64,000 bases of DNA from Eledone cirrhosa (Eukaryota), in assembly GCA_964016885.1 (NCBI GenBank), contig OZ024764.1, forward strand, positions 27,838,001 through 27,902,000, given 5' to 3'. The notes beneath the pieces are model-generated. The model saw only the letters and a program-made list of their open reading frames with translations. It made no database searches and was not told where the DNA came from. Within the stretch, counting starts at the first letter, position 1. Each line of letters begins with the position of its first letter. The translations under genes and the position numbers were made by a program. Positions 4,398 to 50,255 of the stretch are shown here, piece after piece.

Positions 4398-4423
4398 CTT
4401 TAGACAGAATATCTATCACTGTT

Positions 4424-6680: not shown

Positions 6681-6805
6681 ACTGTCCTTACATATATATA
6701 CGTAAATGTTCCCTTGACTGCTATTTCTAGCATATATTAATAGACACTTTAGAAACAGCAGCTAAAAATCAAGAAACAACAGTGTGTGTCTGTATATATA
6801 TACAC

Positions 6806-6806
<1 letters not shown>

Positions 6807-6872
<66 letters not shown>

Positions 6873-6956
6873 AGCCAAAGACACGCACACACGAACATAC
6901 ACATACACACAGGTGTATGTCTGCGTGTATGTATATATATGTGTGTGTCTTTTTGT

Positions 6957-7046
<90 letters not shown>
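6807..7046. repeat. (GA)n, (TC)n and (TA)n microsatellite cluster
   Basis: (GA)n 6807-6871; (TC)n(TA)n 6957-7046. Confidence 0.95.
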
Positions 7047-7051
<5 letters not shown>

Positions 7052-7074
7052 GTCAGTGATCCCCCTCGCAACCT

Positions 7075-8720: not shown

Positions 8721-9077
8721 CCGTTGGGGTCCTGAATATTTTCACATCTATATATGTGTGTGTATTCTGCGACATTTATAATTACATAAGCAAGCATATT
8801 TGAATAACAAAATTTGAGGTTTAAATACTTTATTTTTTACCAATAACATAGAGAAAGGCATGAACAACACCACATGTTAATTACTTTAATATTGAAAGTA
8901 GGCTTATAAATATTAAAAAAGCAGATGCTTGTATCTTTCATGGTGGTCTGGTGGGTGATACCAGAGATGGTGGTAGTCATGGTTTCGGTTTCAATCCTGG
9001 TCATGGGTTACATATAAGGTCTCATTTTTCTTTCTTTCAGTTTTCTTCTTATCTCTAGATATAAATATATATACATA

Positions 9078-9185
9078 AGGTAATTTGGTAGAATTGTTAG
9101 AACATCAGATAGAATTCTTTGCAGTATTTTTCCAGTTCTTTACTCTGAGTTCAACTTTACCTTTCTTCCATTCGGTGTCGATAAG
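9078..9185 (+). mobile_element. Degenerate tRNA-SINE fragment (same broad family as the minus-strand copies)
   Basis: TGGTAGAATTGTTAG (A-box-like)...CTCTGAGTTCAA...CTTTACCTTTCTTCCATTCGGTGTCGATAA; copies at ~11783-11890 and ~48008-48115. Confidence 0.55.
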
Positions 9186-10004
9186 TCTTGAATATGTCTA
9201 ACGTAGCAATAACTGGAGCTACTTAACCAAGTTTTGCCAACCTAGTCGATGTCACCTACTGGTTGGCGATTTAAACTGTTGGCTGGGACAATGACCAACT
9301 AATCAGTCAGATTCCAACTCACTATGTCTGGCATATATTTTATATTTTATATTTGAATGAAGTTCTGTAAGTAACCTGGTGGCTTAGATGGCAATACTGC
9401 TCGAATAGATGGCTTCTATTATGAAGTTATAAGTTCATTCCCTATCCAGGATTGTAGAATTAATTTTATTTAGTTATTATTTAATCAATTGTTTTAACAA
9501 ACAAATTATATCTATAAAACGCCAAATATAGTGAGTTCAAATCTGACTGACATGCATGGTATATATTTATGTTTCATTATACAGCGACACAATACACAGG
9601 AACTTATAAAGATATGTATATATTGTCCAGGAGTTTCGAGTTTAGTGGGAATTGGTACAACTCTCAATTGGAGCTAGTCCCTGCAAGATCAGCATAAATA
9701 ATGTTATACCTTTTCATGAAATCTTGCACACCCGATATTTTATACATGATTATTTAAAGGTGAACAAAAACCAAAGAACATTGTGCAGCATTTCTCAACC
9801 TTTCTACCCATGTCGATCTCTTGAAATAGTTTTTATGTCTCAGGGAAGCCCTGCATAAAATATACTTTTTCTATCTCTAGAGCAGTGGTTCCCAAATCGT
9901 GTGCTGCGAGATGAAACAAGATGAGCTGCAAAAGACTAAGATTAAGTTTTAAGATGTGAAAAATATAAAACTGAAATTTCATATAAAAGTTCAAATATAG
10001 CTAC

Positions 10005-10235
10005 AGCCACAAACCTAGGCTCCACACCCCGCAATGCAGAGGATAGTAAGATAGTACCAAGGCCTGACTCACCTCTTCCACTCCATTGAGACCTCTGCCA
10101 TACTTGGTCCCTGTACTGCTGATTTCCTCCATAAAGTCGGGAGGAAAGACAACAGGAGCCTCATGAGGAGGGGCAACTATTGTAGCAGGTGTCTCTGGCC
10201 TTGTTCCGAGGTAACGCTTTTACGTTTCTTCCACA
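10005..10235 (+). mobile_element. CRE-clade non-LTR retrotransposon, C-terminal fragment 3
   Basis: NAEDSK..YQGLTHLFHSIETSAILGPCTADFLHKVGRK...L*QVSLALFRGNAFTFL; copies at ~12710-12940 and ~48935-49165. Confidence 0.6.
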
Positions 10236-10470
10236 GGTTGCGGCTGAGGGACCACTTAGACTGGGGTGAAGTGTCTGTCCCTCCCCCGACTTCTTACTTC
10301 TTTTTTTTTCTCATTTTCATTTTCTTTTCTCTTCTTGCTTATCTCTGCTATACCACGGCATCAAAAACATATATAATATGTGTATGTATGGTATAGGTGT
10401 ATTTATATTTAGGATAGTTATCAAAGGTAAATAGACTGGTTGGAGCAATAACAGTCTTGTTTATGTATAT

Positions 10471-10527
<57 letters not shown>

Positions 10528-10628
10528 TGTTCTTGTATTTCCATAGAAAAGGTAAAGAAAAGAAGAATGCTATATATATTGTACAGAGCTATTTAATTAC
10601 ATAATAAACAACAGAATATAATTATTCC

Positions 10629-10880
10629 ATGCAAATAGACTTAGACTGGAAAACATTCAGACAGAGAAGAATGGATAATGAGCGTCGTAAGAGAAATTGC
10701 CAACAATTAATATTAATGGAAATGTAGAAGGATTTCATATTAGTGATATGAATGTTTCGTGTGATCACTGTGGAGCTTTGAAATTTAGAAATGAAAATTG
10801 TAACTGTTGTAATAAAGGAAAGGTTATGTTGCCACCATTGCAAATATACCCTGAGAGACTGAGAAATCTCTTTGAAAGAG
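10629..10880 (+). pseudogene. Helitron N-terminal Zn-finger-like region, truncated (alpha type)
   Basis: CDHCGALKFRNENCNCCNKGKVMLPPLQIYPERLRNLF; ends in a snap-back hairpin. Confidence 0.85.
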
Positions 10881-10904
10881 ATTTCTCAGTCTCTCAGGGT
10901 ATAT
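10844..10904. other. Perfect palindrome, 30-bp arms with a 1-nt loop
   Basis: ATATACCCTGAGAGACTGAGAAATCTCTTT-G-AAAGAGATTTCTCAGTCTCTCAGGGTATAT. Confidence 0.97.
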
Positions 10905-11700
10905 ATTCCCGCCGGTGAAATAAAAATTTTAATAGAAAAACGGCGGGAATATATGTTACAACCCAACCTACATATTTTTGGGCTGTAACATATATTCCCG
11001 CCGTTGAAATAAATATTTTAATAGAAAAACGGCGGGAATATATGTTACAACCCAATCTATATATATTTGAGTTGTAACATATATTCCCGCCGTTGAAATA
11101 AAAATTTTAATAGAAAAACGGCGGGAATATATGTTACAACGCAATCTATATATATTTGGGTTGTAACATATATTCCCGCCGTTGAAATAAAAATTTTAAT
11201 AGAAAAACGGCGGGAATATATGTTACAACCCAACCTACATATGTTTGGGTTGTAATATATATTCCCGCCGTTTTTCTGTTAAAATTTTTATTTCAACGGC
11301 GGGAATATATGTTACAACCCAAATATATGTAGATTGGGTTGTAACATATATTCCCGCCGTTTTTCTATTAAAATTTTTATTTCGACGGCGGGAATATATG
11401 TTACAACCCAAATATATATAGATTGCGTTGTAACATATATTCCCGCCGTTTTTCTATTAAAATTTTTATTTCAACGGCGGGAATATATGTTACAACCCAA
11501 ATATATGTACATTGGATTGTAACATATATTCCCGCCGTTTTTCTATTCAAATTTTTATTTCAACGGCGGGAATATATGTTACAACTCAAATATATATAGA
11601 TTGGGTTGTAACATATATTCCCGCCGTTTTTCTATTAAAATTTTTATTTCACCGGCGGGAATATGTTACAACCCAAATATATATATATTGAGTTGTAACA
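10901..11700. repeat. 89-bp minisatellite built from alternating inverted 28-bp arms; 4 monomers forward then 5 reversed
   Basis: TTGGGTTGTAACATATATTCCCGCCGTT-[GAAATAAAAATTTTAATAGAAA]-AACGGCGGGAATATATGTTACAACCCAA-[~11 nt]; period 89 (10984, 11073, 11162); spacers become reverse-complemented from ~11272. Confidence 0.95.
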
Positions 11701-13288
11701 TGGGTTACATATAAGGTCTCATTTTTTTTCTTTTCTTTCTTTCAGTTTTCTTCTTATCTCTAGATATAAATATATATACATGAGGTAACTTGGTAGAATT
11801 GTTAGAACATCAGATAGAATTCTTTGCAGTATTTTTCCAGTTCTTTACTCTGAGTTCAACTTTACCTTTCTTCCATTCAGTGTCGATAAGTCTTGAATAT
11901 GTCTAACGTAGCAATAACTGGAGCTACTTAACCAAGTTTTCCCAACCTAGTCGATGTCACCTACTGGTTGGCGATTTAAACTGTTGGCTGGGACAATGAC
12001 CAACTAATCAGTCAGATTCGAACTCACTATGTCTGGCATATATTTTATATTTTATATTTGAATGAAGTTCTGTAAGTAACCTGGTGGCTTAGATGGCAAT
12101 ACTGCTCGAATAGATGGCTTCTATTATGCAGTTATAAGTTCATTCCCTATCCAGGATTGTAGAATTAATTTTATTTAGTTATTATTTAATCAATTGTTTT
12201 AACAAACAAATTATATCTATAAAACGCCAAATATAGTGAGTTCAAATCTGACTGACATGCATGGTATATATTTATGTTTCATTATACAGCGACACAATAC
12301 ACAGGAACTTATAAAGATATGTATATATTGTCCAGGAGTTTCGAGTTTAGTGGGAATTGGTACAACTCTCAATTGGAGCTAGTCCCTGCAAGATCAGCAT
12401 AAATAATGTTATACCTTTTCATGAAATCTTGCACACCCGATATTTTATACATGATTATTTAAAGGTGAACAAAAACCAAAGAACATTGTGCAGCATTTCT
12501 CAACCTTTCTACCCATGTCGATCTCTTGAAATAGTTTTTATGTCTCAGGGAAGCCCTGCATAAAATATACTTTTTCTATCTCTAGAGCAGTGGTTCCCGA
12601 ATCGTGTGCTGCGAGATGAAACAAGATGAGCTGCAAAAGACTAAGATTAAGTTTTATGATGTGAAAAATGTAAAGCTGAAATTTCATATAAAAGTTCAAA
12701 TATAGCTACAGCCACAAACCTAGGCTCCACACCCCGCAATGCAGAGGATAGTAAGATAGTACCAAGGCCTGACTCACCTCTTCCACTCCATTGAGACCTC
12801 TGCCATACTTGGTCCCTGTACTGCTGATTTCCTCCATAAAGTCGGGAGGAAAGATGACAGGAGCCTCATGAGGAGGGGCGACTATTGTAGCAGGTGTCTC
12901 TGGCCTTGCTCCGAGGTAACGCTTTTACGTTTCTTCCACAGGTTGCGGCTGAGGGACCACTTAGACTGGGGTGAAGTGTCTGTCCCTCCCCCGACTTCTT
13001 ACTTCTTTTTTTTTCTCCTTTTCATTTTCTTTTCTCTTCTTGCTTATCTCTGCTATACCACGGCATCAAAAACATATATGATATATGTATGTATGGTATA
13101 GGTGTATTTATATTTAGGATAGTTATCAAAGGTAAATAGACTGGTTGGAGCAATAACAGTCTTGTTTATGTATATACATATATATATATATTTATATGTT
13201 TGTTCTTGTATTTCCATAGAAAAGGTAAAGAAAAGAAGAGTGCTCTATGTATTGTACAGAGCTATTTAATTACATAATAAACAACAGA

Positions 13289-14030
13289 ATGGAAAACATT
13301 CAGACAGAGAAGAATGGATAATGAGCGTTGTAAGAGAAATTGGCCAACAATTAATATTAATGGAAATGTAGAAGAATTTCATATTAGTGATATGAATGTT
13401 TCGTGTGATCACTGTGGAGCTTTGAAATTTAGAAATGAAAATTGTAACTGTTGTAATAAAGGAAAGGTTGTGTTGCCACCATTGCAAATATACCCTGAGA
13501 GACTGAGAAATCTCTTTGAAAGAGGCCAGGAAGCAGTTGATTTCACAGAAACATCTGCAATTAAAACTACATTTATTTCACTTCATTTGGTGTTACCACC
13601 CGGCAGAGGCCCGTATAGCTTTCATATTCAGGGTCAAACATATCACTACACCCCCATCTCTGTAACCTGCAGAAAATACACCACAATATGGCCAGTTATA
13701 TATTATTGATGGGAACGAAGGTATGTAGCACAGATTGGAAGTACGTCCAAATAATTGTTTCTAGCACAAGGCCAGCAATTACTGGTACTTTATTCTATCG
13801 ACCTAATAAGGATGAAAACAAAGTCAACCTTGGAGGGATTTGAACCCAGAACGTAAAGGGACATAACCCTATGCTGTAAAGCATGGTGTCTGGCGCTCTA
13901 CCGATACTGCCAATCCACTGCCCTAGTACCAACAAATAATGACTGCTCACCACAAAAAATGGCTATGATAAGAGAAGTGTTGCATGAATGTAATTCATAT
14001 GTCGAAGTGTACAATACAATGCATGGCATC
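13289..14030 (+). pseudogene. Helitron 5' coding part (beta type), interrupted by a SINE and ending at the cassette insertion
   Basis: CDHCGAL...CCNKGKVVLPPL...PGRGPYSFHIQGQTYH, GQLYIIDG, EVLHECNSYVEVYNTMHGI. Confidence 0.9.
13756..13924 (-). mobile_element. tRNA-derived SINE with Meta-domain-like core and ~16-bp TSD
   Basis: Minus strand: A box TGGCAGTATCGGTAG, B box GGTTCAAATCC, core GACTTTGTTTTCATCCTTATTAGGTCGATAGAATAAAGTACCAG; flanks AGTACGTCCAAATAAT / AGTACCAACAAATAAT. Confidence 0.85.
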
Positions 14031-14035
14031 ACAAA

Positions 14036-14070
<35 letters not shown>

Positions 14071-14965
14071 TACTAAAGAGTATGTAAAATTTTAAAATAA
14101 ATACTTAAATTCAATTTGTATAATTACACATACAATATGTTTTGTTGTAAAACCCTAAATAATGATTTAAGAAATGATGTCAATCTCTTTGTACAGAGAA
14201 AAACAATTTATATATATGCATTGTGTGCGCGTGTATACTCCATTTAAGACAGTGAAAAACCTAGTACCTCCTTCAAAGAATGCCAAATAGTTTATGCCTA
14301 AGGTGTAACACTAATTAAGTTACCGGTGTAGATATTTCAGTTGAACCCTGCTTCAAACATGCATATTATTATTATATATTTTCAAACACACTTACATACA
14401 TTATATTTATACACATAGAAATAATAAGTTAAAACTAAAGTATAATGATATAACAACAGTATATAATAGTTTTCTTCACTTTATTGAAATGCAATCGTTT
14501 TAAAGAAAAAACATGACAGTATAAGAAATATTTAATATGATAACATAATATTTCAGGTAGGATGGTCGTTTCTCTATGATGGTGGTTTCTCTTTGAACTA
14601 ATAATTGTTTCTATTTTAGGCACAAGGTCAGTAATTAACCAGTACATTACTGGTACTTTATTTTATCGACCCCGTAAGGATGAAAGGCAAAGTTGACCTC
14701 GGATCGTAAAGGGACGTAACTATGCTGGAAAGCATGGCGTCAGACCCTCTACCGATACTGCCAATTCACCATACAGTATAATTATACAAATATGCATATA
14801 GATAGCAATATATATACACTAATATGTATGTACATATTTACACATATGTACATATATATAGGGAGAGAGAGAGACACATGTATGTATATATATATACACA
14901 TGCGTGTATGCATGTGTGTTTATGTACATTCTTCGGTATATATATCGGTATACACATTGGAGACA
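14031..14965. other. Non-satellite leader of the cassette inserted into the Helitron (AT-rich, starts with (TA)n)
   Basis: Begins exactly at GGCATC| where the empty copy (40567/40568) continues AAACAGC; repeated at 50256-50965 and partly at 1-175. Confidence 0.8.
14604..14770 (-). mobile_element. tRNA-SINE copy with internal deletion (B box lost)
   Basis: GGCACAAGGTCAG...ACTGGTACTTTATTTTATCGACCCCGTAAGGATGAAAGGCAAAGTTGACCTCGG...CTACCGATACTGCCAA; truncated copy at ~50823-50965. Confidence 0.8.
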
Positions 14966-15214
14966 CAGAGAGAGAGAGTTGAAACGAGAGGTGAGAGAGT
15001 TGAAACAAGAGAGGAGATGGTTGAAACACGAGGAGAGAGAGAGAGTGGAAACGAGAGGAGAGAGAGAGAGTTGAAACGAGGAGAGAGTTGAAACAAGAGG
15101 GTGAGGGGAGAGAGGAAGAGAGAGAGAGAGAGGAAGAGAGAGAGAGGGGAAGAGAGAGAGGGGGAGAGAAGGGGATGAAACAACAGAGAGAGGGGAGAGA
15201 AAGAGAGAGGGGAT

Positions 15215-15255
<41 letters not shown>

Positions 15256-18200
15256 ATTGAAACAAGAGAGAGATGAAACAAGTGAGGGATTAGAGAGAGA
15301 TGAAACAAGTGAGGGATTAGAGTGTTGAAACAAGAGAGAGAGAGCGAGATGAAATGAGAGAAAGAGAGTGAGATGAAATGAGAGAGTGGGAGCGAGATGA
15401 AACGAGACAGGGAGAGCGAGATGAAATGAGAGAGTTAGAGTGAGATGAAACGAGAGAGTGAGAGCGAGATGAAACGAGAGACAGAGAGAGCGAGATGACA
15501 CGAGACAGAGAGCGAGATGAAATGAGAGAGAGAGAGTGAGAGAGAGAGATGAAACGAGAGAGAGAGTGCGAGATGAAACGAGAGTGAGAGAGCGAGATGA
15601 AACGAGAGAGTGAGAGCGAGATGAAATGAGAGAGAGAGAGAACGAGATGAAATGAGAGAGAGAGAGAGCGAGATGAAATGAGACATAGAGAGATGAAACG
15701 AGAGAGAGATGAAACGAGAAAGAGAGGAAACGAGAGAGAGGAAACGTGAGTAGAGAGCGAGATGAAACAGGAGCGAGAGAGCGAGATGAAACGAGAGGGA
15801 GAGAGAGATGAAACGAGAGCGAGAGAGAGATAGAGGGAAATGAAACGTCAGAGAGAGAGACAGATGAAAGGAGGGATATAGAGATGAAACGAGAGAGAGA
15901 GATGAAACGAGAGAGAGGAAGAGAGAGATAGAACGAGAGAGAGGAAGAGAGAGCTGAAACGAGAGAGAAGAAGACAGAGGTGAAACGAGAGAGAGAGCGA
16001 GATGAAACGAGAGAGAGAGCGAGATGAAACGAGAGAGAGGAAGAGAGAGAGCGAGAGATGAAACTCTGTCATGGACATATCTGACCCTGGGGCTAATAAT
16101 TGTCATGTAATGTTATGGACATCTCTGCCCCTGTGGCTAATAATTCTGTCATGTAATGTTATGGACATCTCTGCCCCTGTGGCTAATAATTCTGTCATGT
16201 AATGTTATGGAAATCTCTGCCCCTGTGGCTAATAATTCTGACATGTAATGTTATGGAATCTCTGCCCCTGTGGCTAATAAATCTGTCATTTGATGTTACG
16301 GACATCTCTGCCCCTGTGGCTAATAAATCTGTCATGTAATGTTATGGACATCTCTGCCCCTGTGGCTAATAATTCTGACATGTAATGTTATGGACATCTC
16401 TGCCCCTGTAGCTAATAATTCTGACATGTAATGTTATGGACATCTCTGCCCCTGTGGCTAATAAATTCGTCATGTAATGTTAAGGACATCTCTGCCCCTG
16501 TGGCTAATAAATCTGTCATGTAATGTTATGGACATCTCTGCCCCTGTGGCTAATAATTCTGACATGTAATGTTATGGACATCTCTGCCCCTGTGGCTAAT
16601 AATTCTGACATGTAATGTTATGGACATCTCTGCCCCTGTGGCTAATAATTCTGAGAGAGATGAAACAAGTGAGGGATTAGAGAGAGATGAAACAAGTGAG
16701 GGATTAGAGTGTTGAAACAAGAGAGAGAGAGGAAGAGAGAGTGAGAGCGAAATCAAACGAGAGAGAGCGAGATGAAATGAGAGAGTGAGAGCGAGATGAA
16801 ACGAGAGAGAGAGAGAGAGCGAGATGAAATGAGAGCGAGATGAAATGAGAGAGAGAGAGCGAGATGAAACGAGACAGAGAGAGCGGGATGAAACGAGACA
16901 GAGAGAGCGAGAGCGAGATGAAACGAGACAGAGAGAGCGAGATGAAACGAGAGAGAGAGAGCGAGATGAAATGAGAGAGAGAGAGCGAGATGAAATGAGA
17001 GAGAGAGAGCGAGATGAAACGAGAGAGTGAGAGCGAGATGGAACGAGACAGAGAGAGCGAGATGAAACGAGAGTGGGAGAGCTAGATGAAACGAGAGAGA
17101 GAGGAAATGAGAAAGACGAAACGAGAGAGAGGAAACGAGAGTAGAGAGCGAGATGAAACAGGAGAGAGAGAGCGAGATGAAATAGGAGCGAGAGAGCGAG
17201 ATGAAACGAGAGGGAGAGAGAGATGAAACGAGAGAGCGAGAGAGAGATAGAGGGAGATGAAACGACAGAGAGAGAGACAGATGAAACGAGGGAGATAGAG
17301 ATGAAACGAGAGAGAGAGATGAAACGAGAGAGAGGAAGAGAGAGATGGAACGAGAGAGAGGAAGAGAGAGATGGAACGAGAGAGAGGAAGACAGAGATGA
17401 AACGAGAGAGAGAGAGAGCAAGATGAAACGAGAGAGAGAGATGAAACGAGAGAGAGGAAGAGAGAGATGGAACGAGAGAGAGGAAGAGAGAGATGGAACG
17501 AGCGAGAGGAAGACAGAGATGAAACGAGACAGAGAGAGATCGAGATGAAACGAGAGAGAGGAAGAGAGAGAGCGCAAGATGAAACGAGAGAGAGATAGAG
17601 AGCGAGATGAAACGAGAGAGAGGAAGAGAGAGAGCGCGAGATGAAACGAGAGAGAGGAAGAGAGAGAGAGCGCGAGATGAAATGAGAGAGAGAGAGCGAG
17701 ATGAAATGAGAGATTGAGAGTGAGATGAAACGAGAGAGTGAGAGAGAGCGAGATGAAATGAGAGAGAGAGAGCGAGATGAAATGAGAGAGAGAGAGCGAG
17801 ATGAAACGAGACAGAGAGAGCGGGATGAAACGAGACAGAGAGATCGAGATGAAATGAGAGAGAGAGAGCGAGATGAAATGAGAGAGAGAGAGCGAGATGA
17901 AACGAGAGAGTGAGAGCGAGATGGAACGAGTCAGAGAGAGCGAAATGAAACGAGAGAGTGAGAGCTAGATGAAACGAGAGAGAGAGGAAACGAGAGAGAG
18001 AGGAAACGAGAGAGAGGAAACGAGAGTAGAGAGCAAGATGAAACAGGAGAGAGAGAGAGCGAGATGAAACCGGAGAGAGAGAGCGAGATGAAACGAGAGG
18101 GAGGGAGAGATGACACGAGAGAGCGAGAGAGAGATAGAGGGAGATGAAGCGAGAGAGTGATAGCTAGATGAAACGAGAGAGAGAGGAATAGAGAGATGGA

Positions 18201-38600: not shown

Positions 38601-39630
38601 GATGTCCATAACATTACATGACAGAATTATTAGCCACAGGGGCAGAGATGTCCATAACATTACATGACAATTATTAGCCCCAAGGGCAGATATGTCCATA
38701 ACATTACATGACAGAGTTTCATCTGGCGCTCTCTCTCTTCCTCTCTCTCGTTTCATCTCTGTCTTCCTCTCTCTCGTTCCATCTCTCTCTTCCTCTCGCT
38801 CGTTCCATCTCTCTCTTCCTCTCTCTCGTTTCATCTCTATCTCCCTCCTTTCATCTGTCTCTCTCTCTGTCGTTTCATCTCGCGCTCTCTCTCTCTCTCG
38901 TTTCATCTCGCGCTCTCTCTCTCTCGTTTCATCTCTCTCTCTCTCTCGTTTCATCTCTGTCTTCCTCTCTCTCGTTCCATCTCTCTCTTCCTCTCTCTCG
39001 TTTCATCTCTATCTCCCTCGTTTCATCTCTCTCTCCCTCTCGTTTCATCTCGCTCTCTCTCTCCTGTTTCATCTCGCTCTCTACTCTCGTTTCCTCACTC
39101 TCGTTTCATCTCTCTCTCGTTTCCTCTCTGTCTCGTTCCATCCCGCTCTCTCTCTCTCTCATTACATCTCGCTCTCTCTGTCTCGTTTCATCTCGCTCTC
39201 TCTCTCTCTCGTTTCATCTCGCTCTCACTCTCTCGTTTCATCTCGCTTCTCTCACTCTCGCGTTTCATCTCGCTCTCCCTGTCTCATTTCATCTCGCTCT
39301 CTCTCTCTCTTCCTCTCTCTCTCTTGTTTCAACACTCTAATCCCTCACTTGTTTTATCTCTCTCTAATCCCCCACGTGTTTCATCTCTCTCAGAATTATT
39401 AGCCACAGGGGCAGAGATGTCCATAACATTACATGTCAGAATTATTAGCCACAGGGCAGAGATGTCCATAACATTACATGTCAGAATTATTAACCACAGG
39501 GGCAGAGATGTCCATAACATAACATGACAGAATTATTAGCCACAGGGGCAGAGATGTCCATAACATTACATGACAGAATTATTAGCCACAGGGGCAGATA
39601 TGTCCATAACATTACATGACAGAGTTTCAT
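29683..39630 (-). repeat. Composite higher-order satellite, inverted arm: 11 CT blocks (~0.5-0.75 kb) alternating with blocks of 2-10 46-mers
   Basis: Reverse-complement monomer AGAATTATTAGCCACAGGGGCAGAGATGTCCATAACATTACATG(T/A)C; near-exact dimer duplication ~34299-35922 / 35923-37542. Confidence 0.95.
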
Positions 39631-39671
39631 CTGGTTGGAGTAATAACAGTCTTGTTTATGTATATACACAC

Positions 39672-39704
<33 letters not shown>

Positions 39705-39809
39705 TGTTTGTTCTTGTATTTCTATAGAAAAGGTAAAGAAAAGAAGAATGCTCTATGTATTGTACAGAGCTATTTAATTACATAATAAACAACAGAATAT
39801 AATTATTCC

Positions 39810-42164
39810 ATGCATATAGACTTAGAATGGAAAACATTCAGACAGAGAAGAATGGATAATGAGCGTCGTAAGAGAAATTGGCCAACAATTAATATTAATG
39901 GAAATCTAGAAGAATTTCATATTAGTGATATGAATGTTTCGTGTGATCACTGTGAAGCTTTGAAATTTAGAAATGAAAATTGTAACTGTTGTAATAAAGG
40001 AAAGGTTGTGTTGCCTCCATTGCAAATATACCCCGAGAGACTGAGAAATCTCTTTGAAAGAGGCCAGGAAGCAGTTGATTTCACAGAAACGTCTGCAATT
40101 AAAACTACATTTATTTCACTTCATTTGGTGTTACCACCCGGCAGAGGCCCGTATAGCTTTCATATTCAGGGTCAAACATATCACTACACGCCCATCTCTG
40201 TAACCTGCAGAAAATACACCACAATATGGCCAGTTATATATTATTGATGGGAACGAAGGTGTGTAGCACAGATTGGAAGTACGACCAAATAATTGTTTCT
40301 GGCACAAGGCCAGCAATTACTGGTACTTTATTCTATCGACCTCATAAGGATGAAAACAAAGTCAACCTTGGAGGGATTTGAACCCAGAACGTAAAGGGCC
40401 ATAACCCTATGCTGCAAAGCATGGTGTCTGACGCTCTACCGATACTGCCAATCCACCGCCCTAGTACCAACAAATAATGAGTGCTCACCACAAAAAATGG
40501 CTATGATAAGAGAGGTGTTGCGTGATGTAATCCATATGTCGAAGTGTACAATACAATGCATGGCATCAAACAGCAAAGTGCAAGAAGAGAAAATTGTTGT
40601 GTACAGAACTGTAAATTAAGATTTAGAAGAGGATCAGATATGAGCTGCTATAATTTACCAACTAGTAATGATAGCTGTTGTTTTGTGGGGGATTGAGGGC
40701 AGACCACCTGTACAAAGAGATATTATCATCTTTCCTAAAGACCATCCTCCTCAGAATATATCACATAATTCATGCCACTTGGACCTCATGACCAACCCAT
40801 AATGGTGAATTTTGGTGGCATAGTGACATGGAGAGGAATGCAGGACCTGTGTTTGCAATAGACTGACAATGCAGGAGTATTACATATACAGTATAGCATA
40901 TAGAGGAGGATTTAGTGCGATATATAGGGCAGGTAAATTATTTTAGCAGTATTTAGTGGAAGCCTATATGAAAGTAGGGGGATGCAGGCTTCAATATTTG
41001 AGGAACAATCAAGCCCAATTGTGAGTGGATGAGTATAATGGTTTAATGAATTATCTAAACAGATGATAACACTGAGCCTTAAGAAATGAAGACAAGATAA
41101 GAAACAGAGAAGACATTGACAGAATCGTGTCAGCAGAAATACCTGCATTGGAAGATGATCAAGTACTACATGAGCAGGTTTAAAAGTTTATGATACACGG
41201 GCCATGTGGTTCTGGAAACCCTTTTCCCCCATTTATACAAAATGGATTTTTCCAAAAGAACTATCCAAAAACCTACAGAAGGGAAACATTATTGAACCTA
41301 AATGGATACCCAGAGTACAGGAGGTGCAAGACAGGAACTGCAGTGCAAATTGGATGACATTCAGTAGATAACAGGAATGTTGTGCCATTTAATGCCTTTT
41401 TGCTTAAGAAATATTGTGCATATATTAATGTTGAAGTTTGCGCTTCTGTAAAAAGTGTCAAGTACCTCTTTAAATATGTTACATGGGGCATGATTGTACA
41501 TCTATAGAAGTAACGAATAATGCATTACCTAATGAGGCTCAGAACCAACACAACCATGATGAAATAAGAACCTATCTTTGTTGCAGGTATGTGTCTCAGC
41601 CAGAAGCAGTGTCGTGTCTGTCCGAATTTAAGCTTCATGGTACATCACATACATTATACAGCCTAGCCACACACCTGGAGAACAAACAGAGTTTACTTTC
41701 AAAGAGGCAATGCTCAGGTTGTGGTAGAAATGCAGGGACCCTTGCTGCCTGGTTCAAGCTAAATGAACTTGCTTACACCTTCTGGGATGCCGCCTCACAA
41801 ACTCCAATTAAAAGCAGGATCAATAATAATGCTTCTATGGAATATTTCAATCCAGAACAGATTATGTAATGGCACAAGATTAGAAGTAGTAGAACTGCAT
41901 AAACATTTTATCAAAGCTTCTCATATCTATGGTCCTTTGATGGGCAGGTGTGTTTTGATCCCAAGACTGAAGTTAGCCCCCAGTGGTGCCAACATCCTTT
42001 TTACTTCGGAAAGACCCCAGTTTCCATTAAGACTGTCATATGCCATGACAATCAACAAGAACCATGGTCAAATACATGATAAAGTGGGTCTGTTCCTCCC
42101 TGAGCAAGTATTTAACCCTGGACAATTGTATGTTGCTTTTTCAAGAGTTCACAGACAGATGTAA
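39810..42164 (+). pseudogene. Most complete Helitron Rep/Hel remnant (alpha type, empty cassette site at 40567/40568)
   Basis: Continuous N-terminal Zn-finger-like region, N-terminal conserved domain, Rep Y2 motif, and Pif1 C-terminus LTPSGMPPHKLQLKAGSIIMLLWN...LCNGTRL...AMTINKNHGQ...GQLYVAFSRV; many stops and frameshifts. Confidence 0.95.
40294..40462 (-). mobile_element. tRNA-SINE inserted in the Helitron ORF (same insertion as 13756 and 49981)
   Basis: A and B boxes on the minus strand; TSD 40278-40293 / 40463-40478. Confidence 0.85.
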
Positions 42165-42358
42165 AAATTAATCCTAGCAAACCCCCACCACTCCTACAAC
42201 TGTTAGCTGTTAGCCCACCCCCAGCATCACCCAACCTCCGTTCTAGTCCCACCGTTAGAACCAATGCTGCTTACCCTGCCTCTTTTACTAGTTCACTCCG
42301 TCGCTCGAATTTCAAAGCTGGCCCTCTACACTTGGTCGTTGCCAGCTCACCACCTGGT

Positions 42359-42496
42359 TGTGCTCTCTGTGTCCGCACTAGCCGGTACCTAAACACAATA
42401 AAATGTCACCTGTGCTACCAAAACTACCACAGGAACTCTGTCGGCATCAGCAAGGCTCAAGCCGAAAGGCTTCAATACTAGACCTGTAATCAGGGC
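42359..42496 (+). pseudogene. Decayed PHD-finger fragment, second copy
   Basis: Near-identical to 3642-3779. Confidence 0.6.
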
Positions 42497-42712
42497 CACT
42501 TTACCTCCGACGACCAGCTTTCTACCGAGTGTGTGTTGATGGAGGGGACATGAGACCAGCAAAGTCCTAGGAGTAGAGACTAGTAAATAATAAACGGTCC
42601 TAGCTATGTTAAGAATATATATAATAAAAATGTTCTATACATTTAAGAAGACAAGAGAAATAAATATTTACCTCTTTCATGTAGGTAATATAGCGGTGTT
42701 ATAAAAGTATAA

Positions 42713-43285
42713 TAACTCTATCAGTGAAGCCCTTTAGTATAGGTCAACTGGGAAACTATAACACATATAACCCTATCAGTGAAGTCCTTTAGTATAGGTC
42801 AACTGGGAAACTATAACACATATAACCCTATCAGTGAAGTCCTTTAGTATAGGTCAACTGGGAAACTATAACACATATAACCCTATCAGTGAAGTCCTTT
42901 AGTATAGGTCAACTGGGAAACTATAACACATATAACCCTATCAGTGAAGTCCTTTAGTATAGGTCAACTGGGAAACTATAACACATATAACCCTATCAGT
43001 GAAGCCCTCTGGGAAACTATAACACATATAACTCTATCAGTGAAGCCCTTTAGTATAGGTCAACTGGGAAACTATAACACATATAACCCTATCAGTGAAG
43101 TCCTTTAGTATAGGTCAACTGGGAAATTATAACACATATAACCCTATCAGTGAAGTCCTTTAGTATAGGTCAACTGGGAAACTATAACACATATAACCCT
43201 ATCAGTGAAGTCCTTTAGTATAGGTCAACTGGGAAACTATAACACATATAACCCTATCAGTGAAGTCCTTTAGTATAGGTCAACT
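42713..43285. repeat. 55-bp VNTR, ~10.5 copies
   Basis: Same monomer as 4018-4277, expanded. Confidence 0.95.
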
Positions 43286-43431
43286 AACAGAAGTATTACG
43301 GGTATGGAAAAAATTCTAAATAAGCCTACAACAGTCATTGCGGGCCACTCTGACTGGTCAGGTGGGCTTGATTGTGGCCCGCGGGCCGCCTGTTGTACGC
43401 CCCTCCTTTAGACAGAATATCTATCACTGTT

Positions 43432-43647
43432 AAGTAATAATGTGATCTGTCGGCCAACTACATTTTCCAGCCTGTGGCGTTTGGGGGAGTCGGGATACTG
43501 ACTGCGAGATTCCTATCTTCACTGGCGGCTAGCCTGACGAAGGTGACTGGTGAAGCTCGTGAGGGCACTTGGTTGTTCCAGCTCCTCAGCCTCGCCATCG
43601 CCCGAGGTAACGCTGCAGACGTGCTGGCTTGCCTAAAAAATCATTAG
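43432..43647 (+). mobile_element. CRE-clade C-terminal fragment 1, second copy
   Basis: Near-identical to 4424-4639. Confidence 0.75.
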
Positions 43648-44499
43648 AGAGGTTTCCCAGTGCTCCTCGCGATACTGTTAACTTTTGATCTAGTAGCAGC
43701 TCGTTTGTCCACCCCTTTCGCCTGCCTTTGGTTGTATGTCGTCCTAGATGTGTGTATTACCTGCTTGTGTGTTGTATGTGGTCCTAGATGTGTTATTACC
43801 TGCTTATGTGGTCCTAGATGTATGTATTACCTGCTGGTGTGTTGTATGTGGTCCCAGATGTGTGGATTACCTGTTTTTGTGTTGTATGTGGTCCCAAATG
43901 TGTGTGCTACCCGCTTCTGTGATTTGTTTCTTCTTCCTCTCTTCCGAGAAACAATCCTGTATTTTTTAAATCTATTCCATGCGTTAAGTAATTAGCAGCA
44001 ACAACAAACTGATTTTCAGTTGTAAAAAGAATCTTTAAACCTTCACCATTTACATTAACACATACCATACGTTGTCCCAGCCACAAATAAACAGTAAAAA
44101 AAACTTACTTTGCGGTTAAATTCGTCACAATTAAAAGAAAAATATTTCTAACACGTTTCTAGACAACACCAAGTTTACACCTTCAATATCCGGTAAAAGT
44201 AAAAACAAATTCTGGAGACATTTAACGAAACGAAACTATGTAAAGAAAAACGAAAATTAAACGAAGACAAATAGTAAATTTTAATTTTTATTAAATAAAA
44301 TACCAGTAATTCACTGCAGTAGATTTAATCAACTTTACTCTCTCTGCACAAAAGAAGAAAAAAATTCCTGACTTAGTGCTTAATATATAGAGAGGGGGAG
44401 AGTTTGGTGTTTCTTCATATAGAGAGGGGTATTGGAAGAGAGTGCCGTGTAGTAGATATAGAGAGGGAGAGAGTTAGTGCTAATTGATATAAAGAGGGG

Positions 44500-45527
44500 G
44501 ATATTCAAATTATCCCCTGTGGGGCGTGCACCCCACGTTGAGAATACCTCATAAATAAATATATGTGAGTGTGTTTCTATGACTGCTATTTCTAGCAGGT
44601 TTACTGCAGTCCTGTAGACGCACAACAAAAACCGGAAGTGGCAGCCATTAAAAAACTTTGGCTTAAAATCAGGCAAAAGTTTTTTAACAATTTGCCAAGA
44701 AAGATAACTCTTGTCTTACTTAATCGCAAAAATCGAGGCAAAAATTTTGCGGGTGTGCAGTTTGTTTGGTGTATTTGACTGCTATTTCTAGCATGTATGG
44801 ACACTTTAGAAATAGCAGCGAAAAACGGAAAACAGCAGAAAGAAGGACACACACCTATATATATATATATATATATATACCAGCTATACACTCACCCATA
44901 CATATATATATATATATACCAGCTATACACACACCCATATCTACGTATAGGTGTGTGTGCGCGCGTGTATGTATATATAAATATATATATTTAAATGTAT
45001 ATATATATGTATATATGTATATATATATATATATATACAGATACATAATTATATATATATATATACGTGTGTGACCTTCTTTCTTATGTTTCCCGTGTTT
45101 TGCTGCTATTTCTAAAGTGTCCATATATGCTAGAAATAGCAGTCAAATACACCAAACAAACTGAACACCCGCAACATTTTTGCCTCGATTTTTGCGATTA
45201 AGTAAGACAAGAGTTATCTTTCTTGGCAAATTGTTAAAAAACTTTTGGCTGATTTTAAGCCAAAATTTTTTAATGGCTGCCACTTCCGGTTTTTGTTGTG
45301 CGTCTACAGGACTGCAGTAAACCTGCTAGAAATAGCAGTCATAGCAACACACTCACATATATTTATTTATGAGGGATTCTCAACGTGGGGTGCACGCCCC
45401 ACAGGGGATAATTTGAATATAATAGGGGTCAATTTGAAAGTCATATAATACGACCCAACTCCCTGTTACACTTCGTATACACATGTTATCGTGTATCTGG
45501 CAGCACCTGCGAGAAGTTTGTTTACAT
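44500..45527. mobile_element. Foldback element (left arm truncated by a deletion)
   Basis: Inverted arms ~44500-44856 / 45066-45527; junction GGGGAT|ATTCAAA removes the equivalent of ~5498-7333. Confidence 0.85.
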
Positions 45528-45553
45528 TAATAAAAACGATGATTCGTTGTCTT

Positions 45554-46604
45554 CAGTAGTTCCAAACCTTTTTTGCTCCATGCCCCACCTCAACGTTTAA
45601 AAATTAGGTTTATGTTCCCCTTTAATATAGAAATAAACCGAGTCTTGTAAAAGTGTTACTACTGTAATATAAAGTAGAAATGCTTTAATTAAACAAAGCT
45701 ACGATGCCGCGATGATCAAAACAAACTTCAAAATATAAACAAACTTCTCGTAGGTGCTGCCAGATACACGATAACATGTGAACAAAGTGTAACTGGAAGT
45801 TTGGTCGTATTATATCACTTTCTAATTGGCCCCTATTAAATTCAAATTGCCCCCTGTGGGGCGTGTACCCTTCGTTGAGAATCCCTGATATATAAATATA
45901 CATAAGTGTGTTGTTATGACTGCTATTTCTAGTAGGTTTCTGGCTGTCCTGTAGACGCACAACAAAAACCGGAAGTGGCAGCCATTAAAAAACTTCGGCT
46001 TAAAATCAGCCAAAAGATTTTCAATAATAGTAAAATTTTATTTTTGACAAGGACGATAACTTTTGTCTTACTTAATCGCAAAAATCGAGGCAAAGATTTT
46101 GCGGGTGTCCAGTTAACACGCTAAAATAAACCTGCTAGAAATAGCAGTCATAGCCACTCACATATATTTATATATCATATATATATATATATATATATAT
46201 ATCAGCCAAACACACACACTTATATATGTACGTGTGTGTGTGTTGACCGCTATATATATATATAGCAGCCAAACACATACACAGACACACATATATATAT
46301 ATATACATGTGTGTGTCCTCCTCTCGTCTATGGCTGTTATTTTTACATTGTCCTTTTCGTTATTTTTCTCGGGATTTGCCCGGATTCGAACATGCGACCA
46401 CCTATTTACAATATAGAATCTTTACAGCTTTACTGACTTTTAAGTAATCCAAGTTGTAACCCCGGATTTAGGGGTGTTTAATTTATTTTGAAGTATTTTA
46501 TTATTGGTCTTAGTTAGACGATCGTCCAAGACCATGCTGGGGCATATATATATATATGTATATATATGTGTGTGTGTGTGTGTATGCTGGGGCATATATA
46601 TATA

Positions 46605-46670
<66 letters not shown>

Positions 46671-47360
46671 CTGGGGCATATATATATATGTGTGTGTGTG
46701 TATATATATATATGTGTGTGTGTGTGTGTCCTTTCTGTTATTCGCTGCTATTTCTAAAGTGTCCATATATATATCATATATATATATATATGATATATAA
46801 ATATATGTAAGTGAGTTGCTATGACTGCTATTTCTAGCAGGTTTATTTTTAGCGTGTAAACTGCACACCCTCAAAATTTTTGCCTCGATTTTTGCGATTA
46901 AGTAAGACAAAAGTTATCGTCCTTGTCAAAAATAAAATTTTACTATTATTGAAAATCTTTTGGCTGATTCTAAGCCAAAGTTTTTTAATGGCTGCCACTT
47001 CCGGTTTTTGTTGTGCGTCTACAGGACTGCAGTAAACCTGCTAGAAATAGCAGTCATAGCAACACACTCACATATATTTATTTATGAGGGATTCTCAACG
47101 TGGGGTGCACGCCCCACAGGGGATAATTTGAATATAATAGGGGTCAATTTGAAAGTCATATAATACGACCCAACTCCCTTTACACTTCGTATACACATGT
47201 TATCGTGTATCTGGCAGCACCTGCGAGAAGTTTGTTTACATTTTGGGGTTTGCTTTGATGATCGCTGCATCGCAGCTTTGTTTAAATAAAGGGTTTCTAC
47301 TTTATATTACAGTAATAACACTTTTACAAGACTCGGATTGTTTTTATATTAAAGGGGACA
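45554..47360. mobile_element. Second, diverged foldback element starting with a hAT-like terminus
   Basis: CAGTAGTTCCAAACCTTTTT start; arms ~45610-46160 / ~46800-47360 share a variant segment (TAATAGTAAAATTTTATTTTTGACAAGGACGAT) absent from the other foldback. Confidence 0.8.
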
Positions 47361-49513
47361 TGTTTTTTAAACTCTGAACTCAGCATCTTTCTGTTGTTCT
47401 CCGGGATTCTAGCAAAGTATAAAAATATATATATATATATATAGAGATATATATATATATATCTGGCAGTCAACCTCAGACTCGAAAAAGCCGCCGCTAA
47501 TCGTGATCGTTGGGGTTACAATTAGACTAAAGTGCTTCCACTGGGCACCATTAGCTGGTTGTGATCATTGGAGAATTCTTTCTGCGCTGAAAGAGCCTAG
47601 GACAAAAATATATATATATAGATGTCGAAACGGCAGTAGCACAGCCGTTGGGGTCCTGAATATTTTCACATCTATATATGTGTGTGTATTCTGCGACATT
47701 TATAATTACATAAGCAAGCATATTTGAATAACAAAATTTGAGGTTTAAATACTTTATTTTTTACCAATAACATAGAGAAAGGCATGAACAACACCACATG
47801 TTAATTACTTTAATATTGAAAGTAGGCTTATAAATATTAAAAAAGCAGATTTTTGTATCTTTCATGGTGGTCTGGTGGGTGATACCAGAGATGGTGGTAG
47901 TCCTGGTTTCGGTTTCAATCCTGGTCATGGGTTACATATAAGGTCTCATTTTTTTTTTTCTTTCTTTCAGTTTTCTTCTTATCTCTAGATATAAATATAT
48001 ATACATAAGGTAATTTGGTAGAATTGTTAGAACATCAGATAGAATTCTTTGCAGTATTTTTCCTGTTCTTTACTCTGAGTTCAACTTTACCTTTCTTCCA
48101 TTCGGTGTCGATAAGTCTTGAATATGTCTAACGTAGCAATAACTGGAGCTACTTAACCAAGTTTTCCCAACCTAGTCGATGTCACCTACTGGTTGGCGAT
48201 TTAAACTGTTGGCTGGGACAATGACCAACTAATCAGTCAGATTCGAACTCACTATGTCTGGCATATATTTTATATTTTATATTTGAATGAAGTTCTGTAA
48301 GTAACCTGGTGGCTTAGATGGCAATACTGCTCGAATAGATGGCTTCTATTATGAAGTTATAAGTTCATTCCCTATCCAGGATTGTAGAATTAATTTTATT
48401 TAGTTATTATTTAATCAATTGTTTTAACAAACAAATTCTGTCTATAAAACGCCAAATATAGTGAGTTCAAATCTGACTGACATGCATGGTATATATTTAT
48501 GTTTCATTATACAGCGACACAATACACAGGAACTTATAAAGATATGTATATATTGTCCAGGAGTTTCGAGTTTAGTGGGAATTGGTACAACTCTCAATTG
48601 GAGCTAGTCCCTGCAAGACCAGCATAAATAATGTTATACCTTTTCATGAAATCTTGCACACCCGATATTTTATACATGATTATCTAAAGGTGAACAAAAA
48701 CCAAAGAACATTGTGCAGCATTTCTCAACCTTTCTACCCATGTCGATCTCTTGAAATAGTTTTTATGTCTCAGGGAAGCCCTGCATAAAATATACTTTTT
48801 CTATCTCTAGAGCAGTGGTTCCCAAATCGTGTGCTGCGAGATGAAACAAGATGAGCTGCAAAAGACTAAGATTAAGTTTTATGATGTGAAAAATATAAAA
48901 CTGAAATTTCATATAAAAGTTCAAATATAGCTACAGCCACAAACCTAGGCTCCACACCCCGCAATGCAGAGGATAGTAAGATAGTACCAAGGCCTGACTC
49001 ACCTCTTCCACTCCATTGAGACCTCTGCCATACTTGGTCCCTGTACTGCTGATTTCCTCCATAAAGTCGGGAGGAAAGATGACAGGAGCCTCATGAGGAG
49101 GGGCGACTATTGTAGCAGGTGTCTCTGGCCTTGCTCCGAGGTAACGCTTTTACGTTTCTTCCACAGGTTGCGGCTGAGGGACCACTTAGACTGGGGTGAA
49201 GTGTTTGTCCCTCCCCCGACTTCTTACTTCTTTTTTTTTCTCCTTTTCATTTTCTTTTCTCTTCTTGCTTATCTCTGCTATACCACGGCATCAAAAACAT
49301 ATATGATATATGTATGTATGGTATAGGTGTATTTATATTTAGGATAGTTATCAAAGGTAAATAGACTGGTTGGAGCAATAACAGTCTTGTTTATGTATAT
49401 ACATATATATATATATTTACATGTTTGTTCTTGTATTTCCATAGAAAAGGTAAAGAAAAGAAGAGTGCTCTATGTATTGTACAGAGCTATTTAATTACAT
49501 AATAAACAACAGA

Positions 49514-50255
49514 ATGGAAAACATTCAGACAGAGAAGAATGGATAATGAGCGTTGTAAGAGAAATTGGCCAACAATTAATATTAATGGAAATGTAGAAGA
49601 ATTTCATATTAGTGATATGAATGTTTCGTGTGATCACTGTGGAGCTTTGAAATTTAGAAATGAAAATTGTAACTGTTGTAATAAAGGAAAGGTTGTGTTG
49701 CCACCATTGCAAATATACCCTGAGAGACTGAGAAATCTCTTTGAAAGAGGCCAGGAAGCAGTTGATTTCACAGAAACATCTGCAATTAAAACTACATTTA
49801 TTTCACTTCATTTGGTGTTACCACCCGGCAGAGGCCCGTATAGCTTTCATATTCAGGGTCAAACATATCACTACACCCCCATCTCTGTAACCTGCAGAAA
49901 ATACACCACAATATGACCAGTTATATATTATTGATGGGAACGAAGGTGTGTAGCACAGATTGGAAGTACAACCAAATAATTGTTTCTGGCACAAGGCCAG
50001 CAATTACTGGTACTTTATTCTATCGACCTCATAAGGATGAAAACAAAGTCAACCTTGGAGGGATTTGAACCCAGAACGTAAATGGCCATAACCCTATGCT
50101 GTAAAGCATGGTGTCTGGCGCTCTACCGATACTGCCAATCCACTGCCCTAGTACCAACAAATAATGACTGCTCACCATAAAAAATGGCTATGATAAGAGA
50201 AGTGTTGCATGAACGTAATTCATATGTCGAAGTGTACAATACAATGCATGGCATC
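49514..50255 (+). pseudogene. Helitron 5' coding part (beta type), second copy
   Basis: Near-identical to 13289-14030, with the same ~29-bp deletion and the same cassette junction GGCATC|ACAAATG. Confidence 0.9.
49981..50149 (-). mobile_element. tRNA-SINE inserted in the Helitron ORF
   Basis: TSD AGTACAACCAAATAAT (49965-49980) / AGTACCAACAAATAAT (50150-50165). Confidence 0.85.

What the first reader, a model, noticed from the sequence alone, without database searches (positions are those of the whole stretch)
9003..49366. Helitron-containing ~9.7-kb unit is arrayed as an alternating alpha/beta dimer, giving a ~36-kb super-repeat
Seen: the landmark CTGGTTGGAG recurs at 10436, 13141, 39631 and 49366 (intact alpha unit 9735 bp; beta-to-beta 36225 bp). 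Starts at 10436 and 39631 retain a ~29-bp segment (ATAATTATTCCATGCA..GACTTAG) that is deleted at 13289 and 49514. Diagnostic SNPs group 11700-13140 with 47927-49365 against 9003-10435 (GTTTTCCCAA vs GTTTTGCCAA; ATTCGAAC vs ATTCCAAC; AAGATGAC vs AAGACAAC). The order is beta(seed), alpha(deleted), beta(expanded), alpha(intact), beta(expanded). Inference: five nested repeat levels (22-46 bp, ~1-2 kb, ~3.3 kb, ~10 kb, ~36 kb). Head-to-tail arrays fit rolling-circle concatemers but also unequal crossover.
Basis: partly seen in the sequence, partly recalled or inferred. Interest (0 to 1): 0.7.

Follow-up and report, generated by a model that had tools for sequence, protein, structure and literature searches.

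The report
Duplicated dead Helitron with fold-back satellite
This stretch holds two roughly 99%-identical but unequal copies of a block made of a broken transposon and a satellite repeat that reverses direction at the same point in both copies, likely built by ordinary DNA-repair and copying slips rather than by the transposon itself.

Summary
The landmarks, the retained/deleted segment (30 bp) and the three SNPs are real. The alpha/beta idea is half right. A Helitron RepHel frame runs unbroken through the one intact 9.7-kb unit and is split at residue 340/341 by about 0.9 kb of spacer plus satellite in the other type. But there is no regular dimer array: one intact unit, two unequal long copies, and offsets of 30.6 to 39.0 kb. 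The two 'alpha' starts differ by 3.0%, more than the 1.2% of other paired segments. The Helitron lacks its HUH and Walker A regions, with the same deletions in both copies, and no hairpin-CTRR|TC junction exceeds chance. A perfect 30-bp fold-back sits at the 10880 break. Most likely this is a recent tandem segmental duplication in a TE graveyard, shaped by fold-back template switching and unequal exchange. Rolling-circle and haplotype-joining rivals stay open but are less likely. New example of a known kind.

The parts
1..179 (+). Spacer F, third copy of the spacer that precedes the satellite (matches 14797-14966)
   Evidence: 7 differences in 168
175..1831 (+).
1832..1851 (-). Short reversed satellite-like tail joining satellite to Helitron body; 3-bp TCA shared with the left break at about 14031
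1849..3441 (+). Helitron RepHel remnant, second part (residues 341-512, 633-867, 1367-1498 of relative P0001), with stops and frameshifts
3442..5498 (+). Downstream mosaic with 41/55-bp and 31/40-bp minisatellites; 99% like 42159-44502
5499..7332 (.). 1.8-kb segment present in the first copy only (absent at 44502; 2-bp AT overlap)
7179..8406 (.). About 1.2-kb inverted repeat, 86% arm identity
7950..10435 (+). Segment D, copy 1
10436..10880 (+). Helitron first part, truncated near residue 223; keeps the 30-bp segment
10844..10904 (.). Perfect 30-bp inverted duplication with 1-nt loop at the truncation point; the 6-bp stem at its centre exists in the unbroken copy at about 40050
10901..11701 (.). 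Nine 89-bp units that reverse direction mid-array, forming a 760-bp palindrome of 94% identity
11699..13140 (+). Segment D, distal 1.44 kb only (copy 2); 3-bp CAT overlap with the 89-bp array
13141..14031 (+). Helitron first part (residues 154-340) with the 30-bp deletion
14032..14966 (+). Spacers E and F that interrupt the Helitron frame
14962..29683 (+). Satellite plus arm: 9 composite monomers of 1.2-2.2 kb
29639..29725 (.). Head-to-head turn of the satellite: perfect 40-bp arms, 7-nt loop; 97% symmetric for 200 bp, falling to 65% over 400 bp
29686..39630 (-). Satellite minus arm: 11 composite monomers of 0.7-1.1 kb plus a last 46-bp block; joins the Helitron start through a 2-bp CT overlap
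39631..42158 (+). Uninterrupted Helitron RepHel remnant (residues 148-512, 633-867, 1367-1498; 732 of 1530 residues covered) with a SINE-like insert at about 40290-40465
42159..44502 (+). Downstream mosaic with expanded 55-bp minisatellite
44501..47358 (.). Nested inverted repeats (44501-45420, 89%; 45616-46202 vs 46765-47358, 91%)
46858..49365 (+). Segment D, copy 3
49366..50966 (+). Helitron first part with the 30-bp deletion, then spacer E; spacer F and the start of the first monomer are deleted
50967..60309 (+). Satellite plus arm: 5 composite monomers
60265..60351 (.). Second head-to-head turn, same junction sequence as at 29684
60312..64000 (-). Satellite minus arm, runs off the window

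Best explanation
The region is two unequal, about 99%-identical tandem copies of a composite block (a dead Helitron remnant, other decayed repeats and a two-armed satellite), likely produced by break repair with fold-back template switching followed by unequal exchange, with the Helitron as passenger. Inferred order: (1) a Helitron lost its Rep catalytic region, most of its helicase and its 3' end; (2) the ~10-kb block around it was duplicated in tandem (about 2.5-3% divergence) and one copy took in spacer plus a satellite monomer at codon 340; (3) the monomer was tandemly copied, the young array folded back once to give a head-to-head turn, and copying resumed at a Helitron start through a 2-bp overlap; (4) each arm expanded separately; (5) the whole block was duplicated again (about 1.2%), after which each copy gained or lost monomers and segments and the copies exchanged at least one 1-kb tract. 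Shown: the anatomy, junctions, shared deletions and divergences. Inferred: the order and the repair mechanism.
For: Same two internal deletions and the same 3' break in both Helitron bodies; missing residues 513-632 hold FITYT (557) and HCHML (626), missing 868-1366 hold GGCGKT (1101). Identical turn junction in both satellite blocks while flanks differ, so it was inherited. Arm-specific variants: GAAAG|TCT in 12 of 12 cases on the plus strand, GATAAAACAAG in 11 of 11 on the minus strand; 25-mer sharing is higher within plus arms than between arms. A perfect 30-bp inverted duplication centred on a native 6-bp stem at the 10880 break matches the 5-34 bp fold-back insertions described in yeast (PMC11724301, abstract). 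Of the 4 perfect inverted repeats with arms of 15 bp or more in the window, 3 lie at rearrangement junctions and the fourth inside the 89-bp palindrome. Junction overlaps of 1-5 bp at six other joins. A 1015-bp tract with 2 differences vs 27 in 2033 bp around it (scan-corrected p=0.018) suggests exchange between copies. The deleted Helitron form is spanned without gaps by contigs of three runs.
Against: Overlaps of 1-3 bp arise often by chance and do not prove a repair pathway. The long duplication itself has no fold-back at its visible join (39631), and its other end lies outside the window. The Helitron's true 5' end was not located, so read-through or truncated rolling-circle copying at step 2 is not excluded. 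Helitron first parts (4) outnumber bodies (2), as that model predicts (PMC12628747, passages). The 39631 junction was not tested in reads, because the tool skipped the repeat there. No flanking sequence was available.
Confidence: 0.66

Rival explanations
1. Rolling-circle concatemer: a Helitron transposase acting in trans copied a terminator-less or read-through template, giving the ~10-kb tandem with more 5' parts than 3' parts; later events scrambled it.
For: Four first parts vs two bodies and no 3' end. Arrays of truncated Helitrons with many 5' ends and one 3' end are described for plants (Xiong et al. as summarised in PMC12628747, passages). Contig depth is higher over the first part than over the body in three runs (the tool warns that depth is not copy number).
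Against: In 39631-49365, CTRR|TC occurs 7 times vs 8.05 in shuffles, none with a hairpin; hairpin+CTRR occurs 2 times vs 1.55. Units are unequal and differ by 1-3%, not near-identical. The landmark at 39631 is a satellite break with a CT overlap, not a TC terminus. The unit carries several kb unrelated to the Helitron frame. It does not explain inverted junctions.
Confidence: 0.12
2. Assembly artefact: the two long copies are the two haplotypes of one locus joined in tandem at 39631.
For: About 1.2% divergence with many indels is within the range of alleles in heterozygous marine invertebrates (recalled). Only two long copies are seen. The join was not tested in reads.
Against: No N gap in the window. 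The join has only a 2-bp overlap, which gives an assembler nothing to merge on. There are three copies of the spacer-to-satellite start, three of D and four of the Helitron start, more than two alleles can give. In an independent raw-read run, the letter private to the 39631 copy at 39955 is a minority class (27 of 159 reads), though only 1 of 34 at 39906. The palindromes are not fold-back read chimeras, because the arms are not mirror copies beyond about 250 bp.
Confidence: 0.12
3. The two-armed satellite is a foldback-type transposon or a Helentron-type element with internal tandem arrays, inserted into the Helitron.
For: Opposite-facing arms made of modular subrepeats. Spacer plus satellite sits in the Helitron frame with TCA at both breaks. 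Tandem arrays in different directions occur within Helitron/Helentron elements in oyster (PMC12628747, passage).
Against: The arms are different subfamilies, not mirror copies. No terminal inverted repeat at the ends of the insert, and the flanks at 14031 and 39631 are not two halves of one target site.
Confidence: 0.07

Closest known systems
'Shuffled' satellite-Helitron loci of the oyster Crassostrea gigas (review PMC12628747, passages read)
   Same: Truncated and tandemised Helitron parts mixed with satellite arrays of different lengths and directions, ascribed to insertion, deletion, tandemisation and recombination.
   Different: Here the Helitron is a coding-region remnant, the satellite is a composite AG-rich/46-bp monomer of 0.7-2.2 kb, and one turn junction is inherited by two 30-39 kb copies.
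Fold-back inverted duplications and templated inverted insertions (PMC11724301 and PMC3907307, abstracts read)
   Same: Short inverted sequence at the turn, small spacer, and a 30-bp templated inversion at a break captured by end joining.
   Different: Those are new events in yeast and patients; here they are germline events, one later amplified on both sides and duplicated.
Tandem arrays of truncated Helitrons made by rolling-circle replication (Xiong et al. 2016; not read, seen only as summarised in PMC12628747)
   Same: More 5' parts than 3' parts, decayed elements, tandem order.
   Different: No terminus found at the unit borders, unequal units, large non-Helitron content, inverted junctions.
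TE tandems that expand by unequal exchange (PMC5932611, passages read)
   Same: TE-derived tandem units as a substrate for larger arrays; internal-to-internal junctions after deletion.
   Different: The repeated block here is a mosaic rather than one element, and no target site is kept at the join.
Canonical Helitron1 RepHel (relative P0001, 1530 aa, 77% identical over the helicase end)
   Same: Collinear homology over 732 of 1530 residues; Pfam Helitron_like_N and Pif1_2B hits.
   Different: HUH region, Walker A and B, C-terminus and 3' end are missing; up to 8 stops per aligned piece.

Membership tests
Helitron1 (canonical), as a derived remnant | RepHel homology (Rep and PIF1-type helicase) | tested here: met
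   Pfam PF14214 (E 9e-8 and 8e-6; 33 and 26.6 bits against a cut-off of 28.9) and PF21530; collinear tblastn to P0001, P0008 and P0012
Helitron1, autonomous element | Intact frame with HUH motif and Walker A | tested here: not met
   Residues 513-632 and 868-1366 absent in both copies; stops and frameshifts
Helitron1 | 3'-CTRR with a hairpin 10-12 nt upstream (PMC5148889, passage) | tested here: not met
   2 hairpin+CTRR sites in 9.7 kb vs 1.55 in 20 shuffles, both more than 5 kb past the helicase end
Helitron1 | 5'-TC terminus | tested here: inconclusive
   The landmark is not a terminus; no related DNA copy could be fetched to place the end
Helitron1 | Insertion between A and T without target duplication (recalled) | not testable with these tools
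   No empty site and no termini available
Rolling-circle concatemer | Head-to-tail CTRR|TC junction at unit borders | tested here: not met
   7 CTRR|TC vs 8.05 by chance, none with a hairpin, none at the landmark
Rolling-circle concatemer of truncated templates | More 5' parts than 3' parts | tested here: inconclusive
   4 first parts vs 2 bodies, also explained by deletion and local duplication
Higher-order repeat / macrosatellite (recalled definition) | A multi-monomer unit of constant length repeated several times | tested here: not met
   One intact 9.7-kb unit; long-range offsets of 30.6-39.0 kb; two copies only. Flanks not available
Tandem segmental duplication (recalled definition: over 1 kb, over 90% identity) | Long high-identity paired segments in tandem | tested here: met
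   87 differences in 7075 paired bases; blocks of 2.4-3.0 kb at 95-99%
Fold-back inverted duplication | Inverted copy starting at a short native inverted repeat with a small spacer | tested here: met
   30-bp arms with 1-nt loop at 10844-10904; 40-bp arms with 7-nt loop at 29639-29725 and 60265-60351
Foldback transposon (FB/Tetris type; recalled features) | Mirror-image terminal arms and a duplicated target site | tested here: not met
   Arm symmetry falls to 65% over 400 bp and about 50% over 1 kb; arm-specific variants; unrelated flanks

The most novel reading that the evidence does not exclude
The window catches a giant palindrome-bearing macrosatellite at birth: a 30-40 kb unit, repeated many more times beyond the window, in which one fold-back junction is stably inherited, the two facing satellite arms homogenise as separate subfamilies, and the hairpin-prone junctions keep triggering the breaks that duplicate and reshuffle the unit.
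Probability: 0.25. Interest if true: 0.5.

Novelty: new member of a known kind. Interest (0 to 1): 0.27.

Why it matters
As it stands, a clean worked example of how a TE graveyard turns into nested repeats. The intact ancestral Helitron frame, a single satellite monomer, the expanded arrays and datable junctions all lie within 64 kb, so the order of events can be read from sequence. It warns that a Helitron inside a repeat unit is not evidence of rolling-circle amplification. If the block repeats widely, the two arms facing each other across a fixed junction would be a natural test of whether satellite homogenisation is confined to same-orientation arrays. No gene or cellular function is implied.

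Tried and rejected
Own genome: none held, so no flanks. Helitron 3' end and head-tail junction scan: chance level. A CTGG|TC at 8997/47921 sits next to the start of the short D copy, but that copy lacks the T and the nearest hairpin is about 30 nt away; rejected. An A|TCTATAAAA near 9512 resembles some animal Helitron starts (recalled) but could not be tested. Related DNA loci of P0001 in JGI metagenomes: 1 weak locus from 456 pattern matches, not useful. 46-bp motif in viral contigs: 0 matches. Rfam on 39631-50966: 0 matches at gathering score. Stretches near 43441-43644, 6300-6680 and 49000-49300 look like retrotransposon endonuclease ends (recalled), but Pfam gave nothing and a homologue search of 43441-43644 found none among 234 candidates, so that label is unverified. 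The long stop-free frames in the satellite follow from AG-rich composition and were not treated as genes. Fold-back read chimera as the cause of the palindromes: rejected, because the arms are not mirror copies. Earlier scan notes: three look-ups, nothing returned. Paper searches showed no description of this satellite in their listings; a repeat annotation of Octopus vulgaris has no occurrence of 'satellite' in its main text (PMC13282606, term search); supplements were not checked.
Full report
OBSERVATION. The four landmarks, their spacings and the three SNP pairs are at the stated places. The retained/deleted segment is real and 30 bp long, lost between two AGAAT copies. A self-comparison with the satellite masked resolves the non-satellite DNA into segments: A (10436-10880 truncated, 13141-14031, 39631-40568, 49366-50256), B (1849-5498, 40566-44502), an inverted-repeat region, D (7950-10435, 11699-13140 distal part only, 46858-49365), E (two copies) and F (1-179 and 14797-14966, deleted before the second array). 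Satellite fills 39,360 of 64,000 bases.

WHAT ALPHA AND BETA ARE. A full-length relative (P0001, 1530 aa) aligns collinearly with A then B. One hit runs through the A-B border at 40464-41063 (residues 303-512). In the other copies A ends at residue 340 and B starts at residue 341. So the uninterrupted form is ancestral, and 'beta' carries spacer plus satellite inside the frame, with TCA at both breaks. The window start is the second half of such a unit. But the two expanded betas show no B or D after the satellite (the first goes straight to A at 39631, the second runs off the window). The 10436 'alpha' breaks off near residue 223, before the site that tells the types apart. It shares only the ancestral 30-bp state with 39631 and differs from it at 13 of 431 sites, against 87 of 7075 for other pairs (p=0.007). 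Among the four A copies, 3 substitutions plus the deletion unite 13141 and 49366 and none supports another pairing; one of the three is a CpG change and one lies in an AT run. In run X1 a gap-free contig keeps the 30-bp segment yet carries the 'beta' letter at 39867, so these markers are not firmly linked. Offsets between paired parts run from 30,626 to 39,008. The fair description is two unequal copies of a composite block plus part of a third unit, not a periodic dimer array.

THE HELITRON IS A PASSENGER. The remnant covers 732 of 1530 residues. Missing are 513-632 (FITYT at 557, HCHML at 626) and 868-1366 (GGCGKT at 1101, LDEASM at 1178); the motif roles are from established knowledge of RepHel proteins. 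Both bodies share these deletions and the same 3' break, so decay came before the long duplication. Contigs from runs X1, X4 and X7 span the first deletion without gaps, and X1 and X7 span the second, so the deleted form exists outside this assembly; these runs held 53-65% of the sampled words and one may be related to the source. A scan for a 3' end found 2 hairpin+CTRR sites (1.55 expected from 20 shuffles) and 7 CTRR|TC (8.05 expected), none with a hairpin. The landmark at 39631 is a satellite break with a 2-bp CT overlap, not a terminus. The 5' end was not located, so copying in trans from a truncated template cannot be excluded for the older 10-kb level.

WHAT WAS MISSED: INVERSIONS. Base skew flips at about 29.7 kb, 39.6 kb and 60.3 kb. 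Each large satellite block has a plus arm and a minus arm meeting head-to-head with perfect 40-bp arms and a 7-nt loop, and the junction is the same in both blocks. Symmetry is 97% over 200 bp, 65% over 400 bp and about 50% over 1 kb (ungapped). The arms are separate subfamilies: GAAAG|TCT is on the plus strand in 12 of 12 cases and GATAAAACAAG on the minus strand in 11 of 11; monomers are 1.2-2.2 kb in plus arms and 0.7-1.3 kb in minus arms. Both arms share the monomer-to-monomer junction that the single monomer at 175-1831 lacks, so the array had at least two monomers when it turned. Monomer order differs between the two blocks, so turnover went on after the duplication. At 10844-10904 the truncated A ends in a perfect 30-bp inverted copy of itself centred on a 6-bp stem that is present in the unbroken copy. 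It then passes into an 89-bp array that is itself a 760-bp, 94% palindrome. Further inverted repeats of 0.6-1.2 kb lie at 7179-8406 and 44501-47358.

MECHANISM. Shown: anatomy, junction sequences, shared deletions, divergences. Inferred: breaks at hairpin-prone sites were repaired by fold-back synthesis and joining at 1-5 bp overlaps, and homologous unequal exchange then changed copy numbers. The 30-bp inversion fits the 5-34 bp fold-back insertions reported in yeast (PMC11724301, abstract only), and the turn junctions fit the fold-back model for inverted duplications (PMC3907307, abstract only). A 1015-bp tract with 2 differences, against 27 in the other 2033 bp, points to exchange between the copies (scan-corrected p=0.018). 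Short overlaps alone are weak evidence. I put this reading at 0.66, rolling-circle origin of the 10-kb level at 0.12, joined haplotypes at 0.12 and a foldback/Helentron-type carrier at 0.07.

ARTEFACT CHECK. The window has no N, the long-range join has no homology to merge on, and three to four diverged copies of several segments exceed two alleles. Raw reads of run X9 show the letter private to the 39631 copy as a minority at 39955 (27 of 159) but almost absent at 39906 (1 of 34). Contig depth is higher over A than B in X1 (11.6 vs 3.4-7.7), X7 (35-56 vs 8-19) and X4 (1447 vs 665-1049, leaving out one 6.8-depth contig with 11 other letters), in line with more A than B copies, but the tool states that depth is no copy number. 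The decisive junction at 39631 was skipped by the tool and remains untested, and no genome was held to see the flanks.

COMPARISON AND NOVELTY. A review describes oyster loci with truncated, tandemised Helitron parts and arrays in different directions, made by insertion, deletion, tandemisation and recombination (PMC12628747, passages); TE tandems that expand by unequal exchange are documented in Drosophila (PMC5932611, passages); canonical Helitron ends are taken from PMC5148889 (passages). The window works like those shuffled loci and is a new example of them. It fails the tests for an autonomous Helitron, a head-to-tail concatemer, a constant-period higher-order repeat and a foldback transposon. 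The host is probably an octopus: this rests on my recall of the short interspersed repeat at about 40290-40465, which is extremely deep in the runs; the one named close protein, from Octopus bimaculoides, is only 63% identical and does not identify it. Seven paper searches (listings only, except the papers named) showed no account of this satellite; subscription papers and supplements were not covered. Interest 0.27.

Noticed in passing
window 9885-9925, 12590-12630, 48815-48855 and 1832-1851: The 15-mer GAGATGAAACAAGAT, close to the core of the AG-rich satellite, occurs once in each D copy just after CAGTGGTTCCCAAA (a hAT/Charlie-like end, recalled) and reversed in the tail of the single monomer. 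A possible seed of the satellite motif.
   Followed up: partly
window 10901-11701: The 89-bp unit holds two hairpins (about 14-bp and 10-bp stems) and the array reverses mid-way; present once in the window, origin unknown.
   Followed up: partly
window 4020-4277 and 42712-43285: A 55-bp minisatellite with a 41-bp variant has about 4.5 units in the first copy and about 10 in the second.
   Followed up: no
window 43441-43644, 6300-6680, 49000-49300, 42200-42480: Short frames resembling ends or zinc-finger parts of non-LTR retrotransposon proteins (recalled); not confirmed by Pfam or homologue search.
   Followed up: partly
window 40290-40465, 13760-13920, 14610-14770: Short interspersed repeat copies; the one laid has read depth 100-1000 times that of the Helitron body.
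   Followed up: partly
window 18703-21976 vs 24925-28340; 21977-23479 vs 23480-24924; 34300-35923 vs 35924-37544: Very recent local duplications inside the arms (2-20 mismatches for plus-arm pairs; 79-89% 25-mer sharing for the minus-arm pair).
   Followed up: partly
window 44501-47358: Nested inverted repeats differ between the copies: the second has an extra 1.3 kb made of inverted pieces of its neighbours.
   Followed up: no
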